Below, in pieces: positions 1-62,821 of a stretch of DNA of 64,000 nt. The position numbers and the translations under genes were made by a program. Within the stretch, counting starts at the first letter, position 1, and each line of letters begins with the position of its first letter. The notes beneath the pieces are model-generated. The model made no database searches, was not told the origin of the DNA, and worked only from the letters and a program-made list of their open reading frames with translations. Origin of the DNA: Candidatus Campbellbacteria bacterium RIFOXYC2_FULL_35_25 (GTDB taxonomy: Bacteria > Patescibacteriota > Minisyncoccia > Phycocordibacterales > UBA12079); contig MFAE01000005.1 in assembly GCA_001774495.1 (NCBI GenBank), positions 26,583 to 90,582 on the forward strand. Direction: 5' to 3'.

Positions 1-2785
1 AGGACTTGTTTGTATTTCTCCTCACTTTAGTGGAGAAATTTCTCAAGCACTAAAAATGAACAATTTTGCTAAAGCAGAAGAAATTGCGATTTGGTATAAA
101 GAAAAATTTGGGGAAAACTTTTATCTTGAACTTACCCACCATCCAGAAATAAACGGGCAGATAGAATTAAAAGAAAAAATTATTGCATTTGGAAAAAAAA
201 TGAATATCCCGCTTGTCGCTGCTCACGATGTTTATTATCTGAAACCTGATGACAAAAGAGCTAGGGATATTTTAATGTCTATTCAGTCTTCCCAGGGAGG
301 TTCTTTTGGTGGAGAAAAAGATGACTTTTCTTTTATAAGCCAAAAACAAGCTCAAACATATTTTAAGAACACTCCTGAAGCTTTGGTAAACACTGAAAAA
401 ATAGCCAACCTATGTAATCTTGAGTTAGATTTAGACAGTTGGATTTTCCCTGATATTGATATTCCTGCAGGAGAAACCTACGACAGCCAACTTAAAAAAC
501 TAAGTTACGCGGGAATAGAAAAAAGAGGGCTTGAAAGAACAAAAGAAATTGAGGACCGAATAGAATACGAACTAGAAATCATAAAAAACAAAGGTTACTC
601 TTCTTACTTCTTGATAGTGGCGGACTTATTAAAATATGCAAAAGGAGCTGGAATATATACAAATACAAGAGGTTCCGCTGCTGGAAGCCTTGTTTCTTAC
701 TTAAACTTTATTACAAAAGTAAATCCAATAGAGCTAAAGCTACCCTTTGAGAGGTTTATGAATCCTCAAAGACCCGGCATCCCCGATATAGATATTGACA
801 TCGCAGACATCCGAAGAGATGATGTTATTGATTATGCGAGGAAAAAATATGGGAAAAAAGCAGTGGCTCAAATCGGGACATTTGGAACAATGGCCGCTCG
901 TGGTTCTGTTAGAGATGTAACTAGAGCTTTGGGGCTTCCCTATTCTCTTGGTGACCAAGTAGCAAAGTTAATCCCCATGGGGTCACAAGGATTCCCGATG
1001 ACAATTGAAAGGGCTTTGGAAATGGAAGAAGACCTGAGAAAACTTCACAAACAAAATAAAGATGTTCAAGAAATAATAAAATATGCAAAAAAAATTGAAG
1101 GTTGTGCAAGACACATTTCCACCCACGCAGCAGGAGTTTTAATTTCCCCTACTCGTATTGATGACTATTCCCCTGTGCAATTTGATAAGGAAGAAAAAAT
1201 TATTACTCAATATGACATGTACACTGGTGACCGTGATGGCGTGGTCAATTTACCCAAATTTGATATCTTGGGAATTAAAAACTTATCAATTCTTTCAAAT
1301 GCAGTTAACCTAGCGAAAGAATTAGAAGGGGTAGAGGTTGACTTAGATAATATTGATCTCGAAGACAAAAAAACTTATGACATGCTCTCCCGAGGAGAAA
1401 CACTGGGGACCTTCCAACTAAATGGGCAAGGAATGACACAATACTTAAAAGAACTAAAACCAGAAGATATTTGGGACATAATGGCTATGGTAGCTTTATA
1501 CCGTCCTGGACCAATGGCTTTTATTCCTGATTACATTAAAAGAAAAAACAATCCAGAACTAGTAACCTACCTTCACCCCGAATTAAAAGCTATTCTTGAG
1601 CCAACCTACGGAGTTATTATGTACCAAGATGACGTCATGCTTATTGCTGTTAATTTAGCGGGTTATACTTGGGGAGAAGCTGACAAATTTCGTAAAGCAA
1701 TGGGGAAGAAAATTCCAAAGATGATGCAAGAACAAAAAGAAAAATTTTATAAAGGTTGTCTTGAACACGGGCTTAAAGAAAAAATAGTGAAAGAACTTTG
1801 GGAATCTATCGAAACCTTCGCGGCCTATGGATTTAACAAAGCCCACTCAGCTAGTTACGGAAGAATCGCTTACGAAACTTCTTATATGAAGGCTAACTTC
1901 CCTATCGAATATTTAACCGCCTTACTTATGGCGGACTCTGGTGACACAGAAAAAGTCTCCGAAATAATTTCGGAATGTAAGAGGATGGAAATTCCTGTTC
2001 TTCCTCCAGATATTAATGAAAGTTTTACAGACTTCACAATTGTTGATTATGAAGGGGGGAAAGCTATTCGTTTTGGATTACAAACTATAAAAAACTTCGG
2101 CGAAGGTATCGCTAATATAATTATTGAAGAAAGAGCCAAAAATGGAAAATTCAAATCTCTGGAAGATTTTCTTGAAAGAATCCAGGATAGAAATTTAAAT
2201 AAAAAATCATTAGAGGCGCTGACTATGTGTGGGGCCATGGATAAATTGGAAGAAAGAGGTCAGATCTTGGGAAATATACCTGACTTACTTAATTACAATA
2301 AAGAAAACGCGAACAAACCAAAAGAGCAAGATTCTTTGTTTGGTCTTTTATCAAGCGACTCTAATATTCCTAAGCTAAAACTAAAAGAATTTCCGCCAGC
2401 AGAAACAAAAGACATGTTGTCTTGGGAAAAAGAATTGCTTGGTTTATATATATCAGGACATCCTCTCGATAAATACAAGGAACTCCTAAAAAAAGAGGGT
2501 AAGAATATAAAAAGCATCAAAGAAAAAACTCTCGATGGAGTAGAAACGGTTATTGCAGGAATTATCGAGGAAGTAAAACTAATTTTAACAAAAAAAGAGG
2601 CCAAAATGGCTTTTGTTAAGGTCTCTGATTTTAGTGATAGCATGGAAGTAGTGGTCTTCCCAAAAGTATTTGATGAGTACAGAGATCTTTTGGAAGCCAA
2701 CAAATGTGTTATTCTTCAAGGGAAAATATCAAGTCGCAATGGAGAAAAAGGTTTCCTTGTAAATACAGTTAAGGAGTTATTATAA
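1..2785 (+). CDS. dnaE: DNA polymerase III alpha subunit (DnaE), C-terminal ~925 aa; 5' end upstream of window (frame open from nt 2)
   Basis: 909-aa ORF plus open upstream frame; PHP-to-polymerase-core motifs (GYSSYFLIVAD, PDIDIDI, AAGVLIS), OB-fold tail; stop TAA 2783-2785. Confidence 0.9.
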   Translation, partial: GLVCISPHFSGEISQALKMNNFAKAEEIAIWYKEKFGENFYLELTHHPEINGQIELKEKIIAFGKKMNIPLVAAHDVYYLKPDDKRARDILMSIQSSQGGSFGGEKDDFSFISQKQAQTYFKNTPEALVNTEKIANLCNLELDLDSWIFPDIDIPAGETYDSQLKKLSYAGIEKRGLERTKEIEDRIEYELEIIKNKGYSSYFLIVADLLKYAKGAGIYTNTRGSAAGSLVSYLNFITKVNPIELKLPFERFMNPQRPGIPDIDIDIADIRRDDVIDYARKKYGKKAVAQIGTFGTMAARGSVRDVTRALGLPYSLGDQVAKLIPMGSQGFPMTIERALEMEEDLRKLHKQNKDVQEIIKYAKKIEGCARHISTHAAGVLISPTRIDDYSPVQFDKEEKIITQYDMYTGDRDGVVNLPKFDILGIKNLSILSNAVNLAKELEGVEVDLDNIDLEDKKTYDMLSRGETLGTFQLNGQGMTQYLKELKPEDIWDIMAMVALYRPGPMAFIPDYIKRKNNPELVTYLHPELKAILEPTYGVIMYQDDVMLIAVNLAGYTWGEADKFRKAMGKKIPKMMQEQKEKFYKGCLEHGLKEKIVKELWESIETFAAYGFNKAHSASYGRIAYETSYMKANFPIEYLTALLMADSGDTEKVSEIISECKRMEIPVLPPDINESFTDFTIVDYEGGKAIRFGLQTIKNFGEGIANIIIEERAKNGKFKSLEDFLERIQDRNLNKKSLEALTMCGAMDKLEERGQILGNIPDLLNYNKENANKPKEQDSLFGLLSSDSNIPKLKLKEFPPAETKDMLSWEKELLGLYISGHPLDKYKELLKKEGKNIKSIKEKTLDGVETVIAGIIEEVKLILTKKEAKMAFVKVSDFSDSMEVVVFPKVFDEYRDLLEANKCVILQGKISSRNGEKGFLVNTVKELL

Positions 2786-3687: not shown

Positions 3688-4467
3688 ATGAACAAAGCAA
3701 AAAAGATTTTTTTTGTACTTATTGGAGCGGTTCTTTTAATAACCGCAGGAGACAGAGCCTTGTCACATCTCAATCGTGAGAACATTTCATCAGCTTTCGC
3801 TCGCGGAAAAATTCTAGCACTCTTCGTGAGCGAAGAGGTCTTGCCTTTTTTCACCCACAGTGAAACTTTTGAGTTTTCCTCCCGTGGAAAAACTCAAGCA
3901 TTCTTCTCCCTCGGAGATTTATTGCCTCTTTTTACCCAATATGGGTATGGGAACTTTTCATCCCGAACATCTGCGTGGTTCGCCTTCCGCAAAGCTCATC
4001 CAAGGAGATCGCTTCAGGAAATTCTGCACAGTAGGGCTTATCCCAAAAGATCAAACCGGGAAGTTCAATACTCTAAGAATTACCCAGCAGAAGTAGAAGA
4101 GGAAGCTTGGGACGACAACCCCTCTGACGAGAATGTCATCAACCCAGCGGAGCTCAAGAAGAGACCTCATGAAGTGGCTTCTTGGTATGGCCCAGGATTT
4201 TATTGGAAACAAACTGCCAGTGGGAAATGGTACAACCCAAAGGATAGCTTCGCCGCCCACAGGACTGCTCCGTTGGGCTCAAAAGTTAAGGTCACCAATA
4301 AGTTAAACGGGGAAAGTGTCGTTGTCGAAATTCTTGACAGGGGACCTTTCACCACAGATGGCAAAGGGCGCTACACACGAGACATTGATTTGACTCGGGC
4401 AGCAGCTCTGAAAATCGACATGATTCCAGAAGGCATTGTGCCAGTGGAAATAACTTTTTTGAACTAA
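3688..4467 (+). CDS. rlpA: RlpA-like lipoprotein, double-psi beta-barrel domain, N-terminal signal/TM
   Basis: C-terminal ASWYGPGFYWKQTASG...AAHRTAPLGSKVKVTNKLNGESVVVEILDRGPF matches RlpA/DPBB consensus; terminator 4485-4515. Confidence 0.75.
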   Translation: MNKAKKIFFVLIGAVLLITAGDRALSHLNRENISSAFARGKILALFVSEEVLPFFTHSETFEFSSRGKTQAFFSLGDLLPLFTQYGYGNFSSRTSAWFAFRKAHPRRSLQEILHSRAYPKRSNREVQYSKNYPAEVEEEAWDDNPSDENVINPAELKKRPHEVASWYGPGFYWKQTASGKWYNPKDSFAAHRTAPLGSKVKVTNKLNGESVVVEILDRGPFTTDGKGRYTRDIDLTRAAALKIDMIPEGIVPVEITFLN

Positions 4468-38695: not shown

Positions 38696-39202
38696 ATGGT
38701 GGAAAATAAGATATACCCAAAAGATGTTGAAGCCGTTTTTTTCAAAGCTGCGGAACGGGGTTGGGCAGTTACTGGAACAGCAACAGAAACTTCCACCCTA
38801 CTTCCAGGGTACAAACTTATCCGTTTTAAATCAGGAAAATTTTCTGTTTTAGACGCCTACTGCGTCAACCCAGCAAGCGACAAGTCAGCAGGATTCACCA
38901 CCATTTGGTGCGACGACGTTCCGGTATGGACGATGCATTACAGCGGGAGGTATCAGAAACGATTGATCCCACTCCTTAAACTAGCCTTACAAGCAAACAT
39001 CATCAGCCGTACCTTTGTGGGAGGACGTGGTCCGACGACTTTTACCGATGAAGAACGGTACCCAGACCTTGTCTATATCAACAATGTTGTAAGGGGAAGG
39101 AGAACCTTCTCCAGTTTTGCAGGAAGAGAAATTATTGTTGACGTGGGAAACCTCAACCTCCCATTGGGGTATCACGACTACCGGGGAATAAGTCTCCTCT
39201 AA
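38696..39202 (+). CDS. hypothetical protein, GC-rich islet
   Basis: 168 aa; TTGACA-17-TAAAGT-like promoter and AAAGGGGGG SD upstream; followed by two-level GC hairpin element. Confidence 0.5.
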   Translation: MVENKIYPKDVEAVFFKAAERGWAVTGTATETSTLLPGYKLIRFKSGKFSVLDAYCVNPASDKSAGFTTIWCDDVPVWTMHYSGRYQKRLIPLLKLALQANIISRTFVGGRGPTTFTDEERYPDLVYINNVVRGRRTFSSFAGREIIVDVGNLNLPLGYHDYRGISLL

Positions 39203-59526: not shown

Positions 59527-59544
59527 AAAATCATTTCATTTCAA

Positions 59545-59582
59545 AACAAAAAAACAAACACAGGGAGTGTTTGTTTTTTTGT
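59545..59582. terminator. hairpin acaaacac aggga gtgtttgt + T-run (bidirectional)
   Basis: between convergent rnr and 59600..62245. Confidence 0.7.
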
Positions 59583-59599
59583 TTCCATTTAATTTCTTT

Positions 59600-62245
59600 C
59601 TAATCCCCGTAAACCTCCCCAAACACTTTTCTCGTCTTCGGCCCAAAAACTCCATAACCTGTTCCTCCTGCAGAACCAGAACAAACAATGTTGTGTTTGC
59701 ATTGGAATCTTTGAATAGCTTTGGTAGTAAGTGAACCATAGTAACCAGAAGTGAGGCCTTCGGGATAAAGGGAGGGATCCTGAGCCAAAGTTTCTTGAAG
59801 CTTTTTAACCTGTTCGTTTTCCAAACCGTAGTAAAGATTAGAGGTAAAAGAGTAACCACTGGTAGACGGTTGGCTGGTAGTAGTTGAAGAAGAAGGACTT
59901 GCAGTCTCTGTTCCTCGGAGAGCTATAGTAGCCTTGGCGAGTGTAGCTTGGTCGGCACCAAAGGATTGAATAAGGGTAAGGATTGCTTGAATCTGAGTTT
60001 CTGAGAGACTGGAAGAGTTAGTTGTTGCGATGGTGTTGGTAACGGGTACCAAGGAGGTAGAAGAAGTCCTTGGGGCAGTAAATGTTGTGGGGGTTCCTCC
60101 GCCAGTGGAAGGGGTTGTTACTGGTGGAGTATAACTGCCCCCTCCACCTCCACCTCCACCTCCTCCACTATTAACTAAGGTCACCGCAGTCTGAGTAGTA
60201 GCACTCACTACCGTAGAATAATCGCTTGTATTAGATGTAGTGTCGTAAGCACTCACTCTGAAAGTATAAGTAGTGTTGGCTGTTAATCCTGTGTTGGAGT
60301 AGGAATTACTGGTAGTGGTTGTGATTAAACTAGTTGGCGTGCAGGAAGACCCGGTACACCTGTAAATGCTGTAGCCACTTACTCCTGAGTTATCAGTGGA
60401 GGCTGTCCAAGTTAGATTGATTTGGGAAGAAGAAATAGCTGTCGCAGTTAGATTAGCAGGGGTAGTGGGGACAGAAGTATCAACTACGGGTAAAGCAATG
60501 TTGAAAGTAATAAGGGTGTCGGTAGCATTACTATTTCCCAAGACATCAATACAACGGGCATAGTAAGTATGGCTACCACTACTTAATCCACTCACTGTTG
60601 CTGTATGGTTTGTAGTAGCAGCTCCTGAGAACGTATTAGTTTTTGATGCAAAAGAAACCCCAGCCGTAATGGAATACGTACAAATAGCTGGCTCGTCAGT
60701 AGTAAGTGAAAGTGTAGCTGAGGTGGTTCCTGCCGTTAGGGTACCAGTGGGGGTAGGAGAAGAAATAACAGGGGCGGCAGTTTCAGCTACGAGAACAGTA
60801 CAAGATTGAGTTTCTGTTGTGATTGGTTTGGTCGTGGTGGTTTTACAGCTATTAGCATCGGTACAAATTCGATTGTGAGACTGAGAACTGTTGGCACATG
60901 TGCTCCAAATTGTCCAACCTGAGCAATACCAGTTTTCGACACAGACAGGAGTAATATATTTTTCCAAATATCTTTCCACTGACCAACCGTCAATAGCATT
61001 GTCATAGTTTATTTGCCACCACCAATCACTACCATTATATGTTGGGCCACCAATAACAGTGCCGAGAGAGCCGGTCGGCTCATTTCCAAGATAGGTACCA
61101 ATAAAAGACGGAGTAGCACGGACATTGAGAGTGGTTGTTGTTTTGACACGATCGTTAATAACTAGTTTGGTGGAAACTGTCTGTGAGCTGGTGCAGGATT
61201 GAGTTTGGGTTTCAATTGGTTTGGTGTTGGTGGTGCCACAACTCTTGGTGTCAGTACAAGCTCTGGTTTGGTTTTGGAAGTTATTGGTGCACGTGGACCA
61301 AGCGGACCAGTTTGTGCAGGACCAGGTTTCGGTGCAGGCAGCTGGAGGTGGAGCGACAACTTCATTCGGCATTCTATTCCAAATCTGAACATCATCCAGC
61401 CAGAACTTCCAGTTACCTGAGGTTGTGCGACCTTCTGATGTGCTTCCATTCATAGGCATCACCGGACCTTTATAATAAGCAGGGGTAACAACCGCAATTC
61501 TTTTGAAATCTTCTGATTGATGAATGCCCTCTTGATTTAATTTAGCATCTGAGACTGCATAACTGCCACTGTCATCTCGCCACATCCTAAGAGCTCCATC
61601 AGTTGCACTTGATGACGAGGGCATTTTGACTTCAATAGCGTATTCATGCCATTGATTATCCTTTAAATAAATGTTAGTACCCCACATAACTTTACCAGAA
61701 TCATACCAATAAGTTGAACCACCATGTAGCCATCCAGCACCAAATGTTGCTTCTATTGAACGATTAGTAACCCCATTTATTCTAAGATGATTTGCTCCTC
61801 CCGAGCTCGCAGGTCCGCCAGGAAGAATATAGTCTGTTGCTTCTCCCACCCAATCTACTGGAAACTTTGCGGCGTATTTTATAAAAAGAACATCGCCAAA
61901 AGTCATTGTGCTTCTTCCGAAGATGTTTGGGAAATCAGATACAAAAAAAGAGTCCGTATCATAATCATTTAAAATACGACCATTTGGATCCATGCTCCTG
62001 ACGGCAAAAGATCCTCCGAAAGGACTATCCGAATCCAAGGTAAATCTATCTTTTTTTCCAGCTATATCCTGAGTAAATCCTTTTGCTGAATAATGACTCC
62101 AAATGCTTTCATCCAAGTTATCGCTTTCTTCAAAATCAGCACAGATTTTAAGCCCTTCAGGCATTGGATTAGGGCAATTTGCTTTCGCAGTGGAAGAAAA
62201 ACCAAAACAAATAAACAACACGAACAATACAATTATTTTTTTCAT
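59600..62245 (-). CDS. large secreted surface protein: signal peptide, ConA/glucanase-like beta-sandwich N-domain, 2 TSP1-like WSxWS Cys-rich repeats, SH3b-like segment, FN3 domains, poly-Gly linker, C-terminal peptidoglycan-binding (PG_binding_1-like) domain
   Basis: 881 aa; CTNWSAWSTCTNN..RACT and CSGWTIWSTCANS..RICT repeats; NLTWTASTDNSGVSGYSIYR FN3; GGGGGGGGGGG encoded by (cctcca)n 60135-60170; GVFGPKTRKVFGEVYG at C-terminus; GC clearly above window average. Confidence 0.8.
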   Translation of the reverse strand: MKKIIVLFVLFICFGFSSTAKANCPNPMPEGLKICADFEESDNLDESIWSHYSAKGFTQDIAGKKDRFTLDSDSPFGGSFAVRSMDPNGRILNDYDTDSFFVSDFPNIFGRSTMTFGDVLFIKYAAKFPVDWVGEATDYILPGGPASSGGANHLRINGVTNRSIEATFGAGWLHGGSTYWYDSGKVMWGTNIYLKDNQWHEYAIEVKMPSSSSATDGALRMWRDDSGSYAVSDAKLNQEGIHQSEDFKRIAVVTPAYYKGPVMPMNGSTSEGRTTSGNWKFWLDDVQIWNRMPNEVVAPPPAACTETWSCTNWSAWSTCTNNFQNQTRACTDTKSCGTTNTKPIETQTQSCTSSQTVSTKLVINDRVKTTTTLNVRATPSFIGTYLGNEPTGSLGTVIGGPTYNGSDWWWQINYDNAIDGWSVERYLEKYITPVCVENWYCSGWTIWSTCANSSQSHNRICTDANSCKTTTTKPITTETQSCTVLVAETAAPVISSPTPTGTLTAGTTSATLSLTTDEPAICTYSITAGVSFASKTNTFSGAATTNHTATVSGLSSGSHTYYARCIDVLGNSNATDTLITFNIALPVVDTSVPTTPANLTATAISSSQINLTWTASTDNSGVSGYSIYRCTGSSCTPTSLITTTTSNSYSNTGLTANTTYTFRVSAYDTTSNTSDYSTVVSATTQTAVTLVNSGGGGGGGGGGSYTPPVTTPSTGGGTPTTFTAPRTSSTSLVPVTNTIATTNSSSLSETQIQAILTLIQSFGADQATLAKATIALRGTETASPSSSTTTSQPSTSGYSFTSNLYYGLENEQVKKLQETLAQDPSLYPEGLTSGYYGSLTTKAIQRFQCKHNIVCSGSAGGTGYGVFGPKTRKVFGEVYGD

Positions 62246-62413: not shown

Positions 62414-62821
62414 TTGTATTATTCTGGTGGAGGAATTAGTTTGGGAGATTTTCAATCTTTTACTTCGGGGGAAGAAAACATGATAATCACTCAGGAATTT
62501 TTGGAAAAAAACGGTGCATGTCCTGCTCTTTTGAATGCCTTTTGGAAGGAACTAGATGGTCAGGCTCCTGTAAAAAGAACTCTGCGGTGGCTACGAAGAA
62601 CGTACATGGGATGTTGGGAAGCTTGGTTTTTAACCGTAACCCTCCCCGTAACACAAGCTTTTGTGGAAGAAGGGGCTAACCCTCGTGCTTACGAGGATCG
62701 AGCCCTCAAACTGACCCACGGCAAAAAGCCGGAAATACACATCTTTCTCATTGACCAGATAAGGGAACGGGAGGAACAAGAAGAAAAGGAAAGAAAGAAT
62801 CGCCTCATAAGACGATCCTGA
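62414..62821 (+). CDS. hypothetical protein, GC-richer (likely start ATG 62480; ORF-track start is TTG)
   Basis: ~113 aa; TGA stop; hairpin terminator 62836-62866. Confidence 0.35.
   Translation: MYYSGGGISLGDFQSFTSGEENMIITQEFLEKNGACPALLNAFWKELDGQAPVKRTLRWLRRTYMGCWEAWFLTVTLPVTQAFVEEGANPRAYEDRALKLTHGKKPEIHIFLIDQIREREEQEEKERKNRLIRRS

What the first reader, a model, noticed from the sequence alone, without database searches (positions are those of the whole stretch)
59600..62245. GC-elevated 881-aa surface protein combining TSP1-like WSxWS repeats, FN3, a poly-Gly slippage tract and a PG anchor
The domain order is signal peptide, beta-sandwich (ConA/glucanase/polysaccharide-lyase-like) domain, two Cys-rich repeats with the thrombospondin type-1 signature W-S-x-W-S-x-C...R-x-C, an SH3b-like segment, FN3 repeats, an 11-Gly linker and a C-terminal PG_binding_1-like domain. 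The Gly linker is encoded by (cctcca)n at 60135-60170, which is prone to in-frame slippage. The two Cys-rich repeats are CTNWSAWSTCTNNFQNQTRACT and CSGWTIWSTCANSSQSHNRICT. This is a cell-wall-anchored adhesin or enzyme with unusual, eukaryote-like repeats. Its GC content indicates lateral acquisition. For an episymbiotic CPR cell it is a prime host-attachment candidate.
Basis: partly seen in the sequence, partly recalled or inferred. Interest (0 to 1): 0.55.

Follow-up and report, generated by a model that had tools for sequence, protein, structure and literature searches.

The report
Wall-tethered CPR surface protein, thrombospondin-like repeats
This is a real secreted, cell-wall-binding surface protein of an ultra-small Campbellbacteria (CPR) bacterium, with a probable sugar-polymer-cleaving or sugar-binding head on a stalk. 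Two of the stalk modules belong to an uncatalogued repeat family, common in CPR bacteria and DPANN archaea, that appears related to the animal thrombospondin type-1 repeat.

Summary
The 881-aa ORF (59600-62245, minus strand) is real. It is the deposited hypothetical protein OGD67484.1 of a Candidatus Campbellbacteria MAG.

Corrections:
- The Gly run is 10 residues, not 11, encoded by only 3.8 perfect CCTCCA units. It is identical in every assembly on record.
- The GC excess (0.437 vs 0.356) lies at codon position 2. About 80% of it follows from Thr/Ser/Gly/Ala/Pro-rich composition. The flanks are housekeeping genes. Lateral acquisition is not supported.

The "TSP1-like" call holds up better than expected:
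- The two repeats belong to a six-Cys module (41 residues in its common form) absent from Pfam and NCBIfam.
- The module was confirmed at 112 loci in species-representative genomes, mostly DPANN archaea and CPR bacteria.
- Archaeal long variants carry WSxWSxW plus RxRxR and match a TSP1 profile at 88-92% hhalign probability (0/100 column-shuffled controls reach this).

The head domain's nearest relatives are PF14099/PL14/PL20 polysaccharide lyases, on weak evidence. A role in host attachment is plausible but untested.

The parts
59600..62245 (-). Whole ORF, 881 aa. It is OGD67484.1 / UniProt A0A1F5EJT4, a hypothetical protein of a Candidatus Campbellbacteria MAG.
62180..62245 (-). Sec-type signal peptide, aa 1-22 (MKK, hydrophobic core, AKA|N).
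   Evidence: Read from the sequence; no predictor was run.
61355..62179 (-). N-terminal ConA-like beta-jelly-roll head, aa 23-297, from a small uncatalogued family nearest to PF14099/PL14/PL20 polysaccharide lyases. R155, D196, H200, D224, Y229 and K259 are invariant, and there is a Y-Y-K-G motif.
61193..61336 (-). TSR-like six-Cys repeat 1, aa 304-351 (C304, C310, C319, C330, C336, C351; W308, W313, W316; R328). It lies within a local GC3 island.
60953..61153 (-). SH3b-like domain, aa ~365-431.
60800..60943 (-). TSR-like six-Cys repeat 2, aa 435-482.
60476..60790 (-). Ig-like beta-sandwich, aa ~486-590 (sub-threshold Big_13/Y_Y_Y). Together with the FN3 it matches the Fn3-like module pair of exoglucanase CbhB.
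60203..60463 (-). FN3 domain, aa 595-681.
59846..60190 (-). Low-complexity Gly/Thr/Ser/Pro-rich tether, aa ~686-800.
60137..60166 (-). Gly10 run (aa 694-703). The perfect CCTCCA x3.8 repeat lies at 60141-60163.
59666..59818 (-). PG_binding_1 domain, aa 810-860 (C-terminal peptidoglycan-binding module).
59544..59584 (.). 18-bp stem-loop between the convergent stops of this gene and RNase R; looks like a bidirectional terminator.

Best explanation
The gene encodes a Sec-secreted, non-covalently wall-tethered modular surface protein of a Campbellbacteria (CPR) cell.

Shown. The C-terminal PG_binding_1 domain is of the kind that binds peptidoglycan, and the genome encodes peptidoglycan synthesis. 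A ~110-residue Gly/Thr/Ser/Pro-rich segment lies in front of it. Five small beta-rich modules follow towards the N-terminus: FN3, Ig-like, TSR-like repeat, SH3b, TSR-like repeat. An N-terminal ConA-type jelly-roll head is at the far end.

Inferred. The PG-binding domain holds the protein on the cell's own wall. The low-complexity segment acts as a flexible tether. The small modules form a stalk that projects the head away from the cell. The head binds, and most likely cleaves by beta-elimination, an acidic polysaccharide on a partner cell or in the matrix. Its nearest relatives are PF14099/PL14/PL20 uronate lyases, and it keeps invariant Arg, His, Tyr and Lys residues.

The two Cys-rich repeats are disulfide-stapled spacer or contact modules. 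They belong to a prokaryotic six-Cys family, 41 residues long in its common form, that adopts the three-stranded thrombospondin type-1 repeat fold and is probably homologous to it. The elevated GC is a by-product of amino-acid composition, and the Gly10 run is just part of the linker.
For: Architecture.

Identity and context: the protein is OGD67484.1 of Campbellbacteria. It sits between SMC and RNase R next to mraZ-rsmH-ftsI-mur. MurJ, MraY, DnaE and LeuRS are also in the window.

Head domain:
- Small family: 39 representatives at E<=1e-3 among 1.84 billion proteins.
- Close members P0055 and P0056 give sub-threshold PF14099 hits. Distant members P0070, P0077 and P0080 hit PF14099, or PF21294 in P0077, on the same stretch our profile matches.
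- R155, D196, H200, D224, Y229 and K259 are invariant in 16 of 16 members.

Repeat:
- 230 unique copies, 222 with six Cys.
- AF2 model at pLDDT 83.
- Archaeal variants give sub-threshold TSP_1 hits over nearly the whole model, and hhalign probability of 88-92% with 0/100 column-shuffled controls reaching the score.
- Partner domains in 70 host proteins are extracellular enzyme or adhesin modules.

GC.
Against: - The window's own head domain has no Pfam hit. No catalytic residue could be mapped onto a solved lyase.
- In one of the PF14099-positive distant proteins (P0071), our profile's best match lies on a different jelly-roll domain from the one Pfam assigns to PF14099.
- The modelled copy is the WSxWS-bearing sub-variant, which might bias AlphaFold towards a TSR.
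- The window's own copies and the pooled family give only 4-35% hhalign probability against TSP1.
- The inferred Cys2-Cys4 disulfide does not correspond to the TSP1 group-1 pattern as I recall it.
- Nothing shows whose peptidoglycan the C-terminus binds.
Confidence: 0.6

Rival explanations
1. Non-catalytic adhesin. The jelly-roll head is only a lectin, and the protein glues the CPR cell to a host glycan.
Confidence: 0.3
2. Released lytic or predatory enzyme. PG_binding_1 and SH3b target the host's wall rather than the cell's own, as in endolysins and autolysins, and deliver the N-terminal enzyme to host envelope polysaccharides.
For: Catalytic head plus SH3b plus PG_binding_1 is the module logic of wall hydrolases. 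A weak SleB-like hit covers the C-terminus. SH3b homologues occur in glycosidase-bearing proteins such as P0009, P0011 and P0014.
Against: There is no peptidoglycan-hydrolase domain. The long stalk and tether fit display better than a diffusible enzyme. The organism has its own peptidoglycan machinery.
Confidence: 0.2
3. The TSR likeness is convergence. The repeat is an unrelated small disulfide-rich beta-ribbon that merely resembles TSRs.
For: No Pfam TSP_1 hit for the window copies. No PDB profile hit. The A4 set of 37 copies gives 3.9% hhalign probability and the pooled 230 copies give 35%. Structural scores are sub-significant. The canonical 41-residue form has two Trp spaced W-x4-W and a single Arg. 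At least one disulfide appears to be placed differently.
Against: TSRs rank first exclusively in two independent structure-comparison methods. Family members carry the full WSxWSxW and RxRxRxC signature in register. Those members reach 88-92% hhalign probability with 0/100 shuffles as good, and have TSP_1 as a full-length Pfam hit.
Confidence: 0.25
4. Recently laterally acquired, phase-variable gene: a GC-rich foreign island whose Gly-tract length changes by slippage.
For: Gene GC is 0.437 vs 0.356. There is a local GC3 island of 0.58 over codons ~276-350. A CCTCCA x3.8 repeat is present.
Against: GC expected from the amino-acid sequence alone is 0.421, and GC3 is 0.34 vs 0.31 expected. Flanks are housekeeping with no integrase, transposase or adjacent tRNA. 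The tract is short and any change would be in frame. The tract is identical in the window, L001, L002 and P0048. The 90% cluster holds no length variants. Homologue P0001 has no Gly run.
Confidence: 0.05

Closest known systems
Thrombospondin type-1 repeat (TSR; Pfam TSP_1 PF00090), as in thrombospondin-1, properdin, F-spondin, semaphorin-5A and apicomplexan TRAP/MIC2
   Different: The window copies have no Pfam TSP_1 hit. They lack the C-S-x-x-C-G hairpin of the canonical TSR. They have one Arg instead of the R-x-R-x-R ladder. The common 41-residue form has two Trp spaced W-x4-W. An extra N-terminal C-x-E-x-W-x-C element and a conserved C-T-D-A-N-x-C-G-T...K-P motif have no TSR counterpart. 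A Cys2-Cys4 disulfide is inferred. The copies are net acidic or neutral (mean charge -1.7), whereas the heparin-binding TSRs I recall are basic. The hosts are prokaryotes, where the eukaryotic C-mannosylation and O-fucosylation of TSRs would not be expected (from general knowledge).
Beta-jelly-roll polysaccharide lyases: Pfam PF14099 (as I recall it, heparin lyase I and the PL20 glucuronan lyase) and PF21294 (PL14, e.g. Chlorella virus vAL-1, Aplysia AkAly30)
   Different: The window's own domain has no Pfam, NCBIfam or PDB sequence hit. The family is tiny (39 representatives). Catalytic residues are not mapped and no activity is known.
Gram-positive wall-associated modular enzymes and adhesins that use PG_binding_1 and/or SH3b modules for non-covalent wall attachment, with Fn3/Ig spacers (e.g. 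the Fn3-like modules of clostridial exoglucanase CbhB)
   Same: Signal peptide, functional head, Ig/Fn3 spacers, wall-binding module. The NCBIfam CbhB model matches aa 484-689. PG_binding_1 is above threshold.
   Different: The head family is uncatalogued. TSR-like repeats flank the SH3b. The host is a CPR bacterium.
Apicomplexan TRAP/MIC2 adhesins (functional analogy only)
   Same: A ligand-binding head carried on TSR module(s) and tethered to the cell surface. TRAP and MIC2 TSRs are among the structural matches.
   Different: The head is unrelated (von Willebrand A domain). TRAP/MIC2 are anchored by a transmembrane segment, not by peptidoglycan binding. No common ancestry of the whole protein is implied.

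Membership tests
Thrombospondin type-1 repeat (Pfam TSP_1, PF00090) | Scores above the Pfam gathering threshold (21.6 bits) | tested here: not met
   The window repeats scanned alone at E<=10 give no hit. The best archaeal family member gives 16.8 bits, E 0.0077, over profile positions 2-45 of 49.
Thrombospondin type-1 repeat (Pfam TSP_1, PF00090) | Three-stranded TSR fold (irregular Trp strand plus two beta-strands) | tested here: met
Thrombospondin type-1 repeat (Pfam TSP_1, PF00090) | W-x-x-W-x-x-W Trp ladder interleaved with an R-x-R-x-R ladder | tested here: not met
   Window copy 1 has W308-x4-W313-x2-W316 and a single R328. Only 28 of 230 copies have W-x-x-W. The full WSxWSxW plus RTRTRTC signature exists only in archaeal long variants.
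Thrombospondin type-1 repeat (Pfam TSP_1, PF00090) | Six Cys forming three disulfides in a TSR pattern | tested here: inconclusive
   Six Cys in 222 of 230 copies. Joint loss of Cys2 and Cys4 in three independent copies implies a Cys2-Cys4 bond.
Thrombospondin type-1 repeat (Pfam TSP_1, PF00090) | Profile-profile homology to a validated TSR profile | tested here: inconclusive
   The TSR reference set A5 is validated: 9 of 9 hit TSP_1. The A4 set of 37 copies (window copies first) gives 3.9%. All 230 copies give 35%, with 2/100 shuffles as good. Archaeal long and mid variants give 88-92%, with 0/100 shuffles as good.
Polysaccharide lyase jelly rolls (PF14099 / PF21294-PL14 / PL20) | HMM hit above threshold in the window's own domain | tested here: not met
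   No Pfam hit at E<=10. No NCBIfam hit in this region.
Polysaccharide lyase jelly rolls (PF14099 / PF21294-PL14 / PL20) | Homologues of the domain are members (transitive link) | tested here: inconclusive
   6 of 24 aligned relatives hit PF14099 (best 3.7e-12) and 2 hit PF21294. Close members P0055 and P0056 are only sub-threshold. The strong hits are in relatives linked to our profile at only E 1e-4 to 5e-6. In P0071 the best stretch matched by our profile is a different domain from the PF14099 one.
Polysaccharide lyase jelly rolls (PF14099 / PF21294-PL14 / PL20) | Beta-jelly-roll fold closest to solved lyases | tested here: inconclusive
Polysaccharide lyase jelly rolls (PF14099 / PF21294-PL14 / PL20) | Catalytic Tyr/His base-acid pair and an Arg/Lys/Gln carboxylate neutraliser at equivalent positions; beta-elimination activity | not testable with these tools
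PG_binding_1 (PF01471) | HMM hit above the gathering threshold (23 bits) | tested here: met
   26.1 bits in the full protein and 31.7 bits (E 1.7e-7) for the C-terminal segment alone.
fn3 (PF00041) | HMM hit above the gathering threshold (25 bits) | tested here: met
   44.3 bits, E 2e-11, aa 595-681.
Bacterial SH3 (SH3_3, PF08239) | HMM hit above the gathering threshold (27 bits) | tested here: not met
   21.1 bits, E 3.6e-4. However, the segment is 55-62% identical to segments of P0009, P0011 and P0013, which carry PF08239, so homology is likely.
Simple-sequence contingency (phase- or length-variable) locus | Long perfect repeat tract with observed length variation | tested here: not met
   3.8 hexamer units over 23 bp. 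G10 is identical in the window, L001, L002 and P0048. The 90% cluster holds no length variants. Read-level data were not available.
Laterally acquired genomic island | Synonymous-site composition deviating from the genome; mobile-element or tRNA flanks | tested here: not met
   GC3 0.339 vs 0.307 expected, and GC 0.437 vs 0.421 expected from the amino-acid sequence. Flanks are housekeeping. The nearest tRNAs are more than 30 kb away. Exception: a 75-codon GC3 island at repeat 1.

The most novel reading that the evidence does not exclude
The six-Cys repeat is a true prokaryotic branch of the thrombospondin type-1 repeat superfamily. It is shared, presumably by inter-domain transfer, between the two ultra-small episymbiotic radiations (CPR bacteria and DPANN archaea), where it serves as a cell-contact or stalk module. 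That would mean TSRs are not a eukaryotic invention, and it would give a common molecular handle on how both radiations build host-facing surface proteins.
Probability: 0.3. Interest if true: 0.75.

Novelty: new variant of a known kind. Interest (0 to 1): 0.5.

Why it matters
The protein is an ordinary kind of object, a modular wall-tethered surface protein, and it is already deposited as a hypothetical protein.

What is new is the repeat family it belongs to. This short disulfide-rich module is not in Pfam or NCBIfam. It is abundant in DPANN archaea and CPR bacteria and is attached to beta-helix, FG-GAP, Ig, LamG, glycosidase, lyase and protease domains. It appears to be a reduced relative of the thrombospondin type-1 repeat.

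If confirmed, this would:
- define a new domain family for annotating a large block of 'hypothetical' surface proteins in the least understood prokaryotic lineages;
- bear on the evolutionary origin of TSRs;
- nominate concrete candidates, this protein among them, for the host-contact machinery of episymbionts, whose mechanisms of host binding are described as largely unknown (abstract of PMC12206443).

Tried and rejected
- Word-indexed homologue search with the repeat profile returned one protein and was uninformative.
I replaced it with a degenerate DNA pattern scan.
- PDB sequence searches with the repeat profile, the head-domain profile and two PF14099-positive intermediates found nothing usable. 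Catalytic residues therefore could not be mapped.
- The AFDB50 Foldseek library was unavailable.
- The viral-contig scan for the repeat motif gave 0 matches, so there is no phage link.
- Four literature searches found no description of TSR-like repeats in CPR, DPANN or prokaryotes in the searchable library. This does not prove none exists.
- Rejected: lateral acquisition from GC content.
- Rejected: slippage-driven variation.
- Rejected: rRNA or another ncRNA as the cause of other GC-rich spots in the window. Rfam finds only four tRNAs.
- The seven pattern matches that the repeat HMM did not confirm (Bradyrhizobium, Burkholderia, Marivivens and others) are consistent with chance matches.
Full report
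OBSERVATION

The ORF exists exactly as stated: 59600..62245 on the minus strand, ATG start, 881 aa. The same protein is on record as OGD67484.1 / UniProt A0A1F5EJT4, a hypothetical or 'Fibronectin type-III domain-containing' protein of a Candidatus Campbellbacteria MAG. It is called on six contigs. Two of them (JGI 3300002209 and ENA ERZ27254852) are 100% identical to the window over 14.4 kb, so they probably represent one population.

Pfam gives fn3 at aa 595-681 (44 bits) and PG_binding_1 at aa 810-860 (26 bits in the full protein, 32 bits alone), both above threshold. SH3_3 at aa 372-427 is below threshold. That segment is nevertheless 55-62% identical to segments of proteins annotated with PF08239. 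The NCBIfam CbhB model matches aa 484-689, the Ig-like plus FN3 pair. Neither the N-terminal 275 residues nor the two Cys-rich segments hit any Pfam model at E<=10. The signal peptide (MKK, hydrophobic core, AKA|N) was read from the sequence only.

GC CONTENT

The gene is GC-richer than the window, 0.437 against 0.356. The excess sits at codon position 2: 0.55, against about 0.31 in fourteen neighbouring genes. GC3 is 0.34, against 0.26-0.34 for most neighbours. The protein is 15% Thr, 12% Ser and 9% Gly, while the neighbours are Lys/Glu/Ile/Leu-rich.

Back-translating the protein with the neighbours' synonymous codon usage predicts GC 0.421 and GC3 0.307. About 80% of the excess is therefore amino-acid composition. 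The flanks are SMC, RNase R, mraZ-rsmH-ftsI-mur, LepA, TopA and SecG. The rest of the window holds DnaE, LeuRS, MurJ, MraY and similar genes. There are no mobile-element genes, and the nearest tRNAs are more than 30 kb away. Lateral acquisition of the gene is not supported. The one anomaly is a 75-codon stretch spanning the head/repeat-1 junction with GC3 0.58. It hints at module-level recombination.

GLY TRACT

The run is 10 Gly (aa 694-703; window 60137-60166). It is encoded by GGA/GGT/GGG/GGC codons, with a perfect CCTCCA repeat of only 3.8 units. It is identical in all assemblies and in the near-identical fragment P0048. The 90% cluster contains no length variants. The closest full-architecture homologue, P0001, has no Gly run. 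It is best read as part of a ~110-residue Gly/Thr/Ser/Pro-rich tether. Read-level variation could not be tested.

THE CYS-RICH REPEATS

The two segments (aa 304-351 and 435-482) recur in other proteins. An alignment of copies shows six invariant Cys, two invariant Trp and an invariant Asp, with Arg, Gly, Pro and Gln nearly invariant. The third Trp, which creates 'WSxWS', is present only in a 48-residue sub-variant to which the window copies belong.

I back-translated the motif C-T-D-A-N-x-C-G-T and scanned one genome per GTDB species. A repeat HMM on six-frame translations confirmed 112 of them, mostly at E 1e-10 to 1e-18. The seven failures are ordinary Proteobacteria, Bacteroidota and similar, consistent with chance matches.

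By record title, about 79 confirmed loci are archaeal. The labelled groups are Woesearchaeota, Nanoarchaeota, Iainarchaeum, Aenigmatarchaeota, Micrarchaeota and Pacearchaeota, plus unnamed archaea and some 'Methanosarcinales' TPA bins. Nineteen loci are CPR/Patescibacteria. Nine are 'Gammaproteobacteria' TPA bins, four are Myxococcota and one is Binatia. The Myxococcota loci have GC 0.57-0.73, as expected for that group. The scan order is unknown and some TPA labels may be unreliable, so these proportions are not meaningful. It is still clear that the module is native to and widespread in prokaryotes, especially DPANN and CPR. It is absent from IMG/VR viral contigs.

Pooling gave 230 unique copies with the consensus C-x-E-x-W-S-C-x-x-W-S-x-C-x-x-G-x-Q-T-R-T-C-T-D-A-N-x-C-G-T-T-x-x-K-P-x-x-x-Q-x-C. 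Of these, 157 are exactly 41 residues long, 222 have six Cys, and only 13 contain WSxWS. In 70 host ORFs the partner domains are Beta_helix, FG-GAP, Big_7, fn3, MopE, Laminin_G_3, Peptidase_S8, GH32, GH43, PL14, CBM9 and polysaccharide deacetylase. The module is therefore a promiscuous extracellular one.

IS THE REPEAT A THROMBOSPONDIN TYPE-1 REPEAT?

By direct sequence tests the window copies are not:
- They have no Pfam TSP_1 hit.
- The repeat profile has no PDB hit.
- They give 3.9% hhalign probability against a TSR reference profile that I wrote from memory and validated (9 of 9 hit PF00090).

Structurally the answer is different. An AlphaFold2 model of copy 1, built with a 37-copy alignment, reaches pLDDT 83. 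It has an irregular Trp-bearing N-terminal segment followed by two long beta-strands.

Sequence intermediates then appeared. Archaeal copies of 48-56 residues carry W-S-x-W-S-x-W-x-x-C together with R-T-R-T-R-T-C. Three of ten such copies have Pfam TSP_1 as a hit over profile positions 2-45 of 49 (best 16.8 bits, E 0.0077, cutoff 21.6). A fourth hits the properdin-type TSP1 model.

Their alignments reach 88-92% hhalign probability (scores 31-33.5) against the TSR profile, and W-x-x-W-x-x-C and R-x-R-x-C align in register. One hundred column-shuffled TSR profiles score 10-11 +/- 2.7 with a maximum of 22, and none reaches the observed value. For the pooled family the score is 20.3 (35% probability), and 2 of 100 shuffles are as good.

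I conclude that the TSR fold is supported. Homology is likely, at about 0.6-0.7, through a graded series: canonical TSR, then the archaeal W3/R3 form, then the 48-residue W3/R1 form found in this gene, then the 41-residue W2/R1 form, then a four-Cys form.

The family also differs from TSRs:
- It lacks the C-S-x-x-C-G hairpin.
- It has an extra C-x-E-x-W-x-C element at the N-terminus.
- It has its own C-T-D-A-N-x-C-G-T...K-P motif.
- It is net acidic (mean charge -1.7).
- Three independent copies have lost Cys2 and Cys4 together. This implies a Cys2-Cys4 bond (C310-C330 in the window's copy 1) that, as far as I recall, is not the TSP1 group-1 pattern.

THE HEAD DOMAIN (aa 23-297)

The head belongs to a small family. 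The word-indexed search finds five relatives, plus P0003 from the full-length search. An exhaustive profile search of 1.84 billion representatives finds 39 at E<=1e-3 and 15 at E<=1e-10. The window's own domain has no Pfam, NCBIfam or PDB sequence hit.

Two close members give sub-threshold PF14099 (Polysacc_lyase) hits. Several distant ones hit PF14099, or PF21294 (PL14), above threshold on the stretch that matches our profile (P0070, P0077, P0080). In P0071, however, our profile's best match is a different jelly-roll domain from the PF14099 one.

Across 16 secure members, R155, D196, H200, D224, Y229 and K259 are invariant, and N152, R220, Y257 and Y258 are nearly so. They include a G-G-A-N-H-x-R strand and a Y-Y-K-G strand. 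From memory, these recall the R / Q-I-H / Y-F-K-A-G signature of jelly-roll uronate lyases. D-N-Q-W-H is also a generic LamG motif, as the neurexin hits show.

I therefore place the head in the ConA-like clan nearest the PF14099/PL14/PL20 lyases. I rate actual lyase activity at about 0.45 and lectin-only function at about 0.35.

MECHANISM

Shown:
- The domain order.
- A peptidoglycan-binding type domain at the C-terminus.
- An organism with peptidoglycan synthesis genes (FtsI, Mur ligase, MurJ, MraY).
- A gene that appears monocistronic, with a convergent neighbour and a shared stem-loop at 59544-59584.

Inferred:
- The protein is exported.
- It is held on the cell's own wall by its C-terminus.
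- It extends through a flexible tether and a stalk of five small beta modules.
- It presents a glycan-binding or glycan-cleaving head to the outside.

Whether the target is a host cell surface, which would make it an attachment or feeding factor, or a matrix polysaccharide cannot be decided here. The alternative, that PG_binding_1 and SH3b bind the host wall as in lysins, remains open.

NOVELTY AND SCORE

The protein itself is a new member of a familiar class and is already deposited. The repeat family is the interesting part. It is uncatalogued in the libraries searched, and I found no description of it in the searchable literature. It is widespread in DPANN and CPR, and it is probably a reduced TSR. 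I rate the whole as a new variant of a known kind, with interest 0.5.

Noticed in passing
window ~61196-61420 (codons ~276-350 of the gene): A local codon-usage island. GC3 is 0.58 over the junction of the head domain and Cys repeat 1, against 0.31 expected and 0.38 for repeat 2. Repeat 1 uses ACC, TCC and TGC where repeat 2 uses ACA/ACT, TCT and TGT. This suggests module-level recombination or gene conversion from a GC-richer relative.
   Followed up: partly
window 3688-4467 (+): A 259-aa ORF with a DPBB_1 (RlpA-like lytic transglycosylase) domain has GC 0.458 and GC3 0.45. It is a much stronger synonymous-site outlier than the gene under study, and a better lateral-transfer candidate.
   Followed up: partly
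window 38696-39202 (+): A 168-aa ORF with a DUF5680 hit has GC 0.466, flat across codon positions (GC3 0.46). It is another compositional outlier in a 0.36-GC window.
   Followed up: no
L023 near 2627-2652 (-); also L006, L059, L050, L079, L030, L096: DPANN archaeal copies of the repeat (56-residue form) carry the full canonical TSR signature, WSxWSxWxxC ... RTRTRTC. They often alternate in tandem with a shorter form in the same protein.
   Followed up: partly
P0001 (1253 aa homologue), aa ~640-680 and ~790-830: P0001 has a four-Cys sub-variant of the repeat (CTSFTYSSWNTCQSNNTQTRTV...GC...C) in which Cys2 and Cys4 are replaced by Tyr and Val. The repeat-SH3b-repeat cassette seen in the window protein is reiterated in this homologue, which also has a second jelly-roll domain.
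   Followed up: partly
L012, L047, L077, L089: The repeat is also confirmed in high-GC (0.57-0.73) Myxococcota MAG contigs, so it is not exclusive to ultra-small lineages. Nine 'Gammaproteobacteria' and eight 'Methanosarcinales' TPA bins also carry it, but their labels were not verified.
   Followed up: partly
window 62414-62821 (+): A 135-aa TTG-start ORF between the gene's upstream region and SMC has no Pfam hit. JGI and ENA call a 113-126-aa gene on the opposite strand here instead (L001 9425-9805). The coding status of this 670-bp spacer is unclear.
   Followed up: no
window 59544-59584: An 18-bp stem-loop with T/A runs on both sides lies between the convergent stop codons of RNase R (59526) and this gene (59600). 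It looks like a shared bidirectional terminator.
   Followed up: partly
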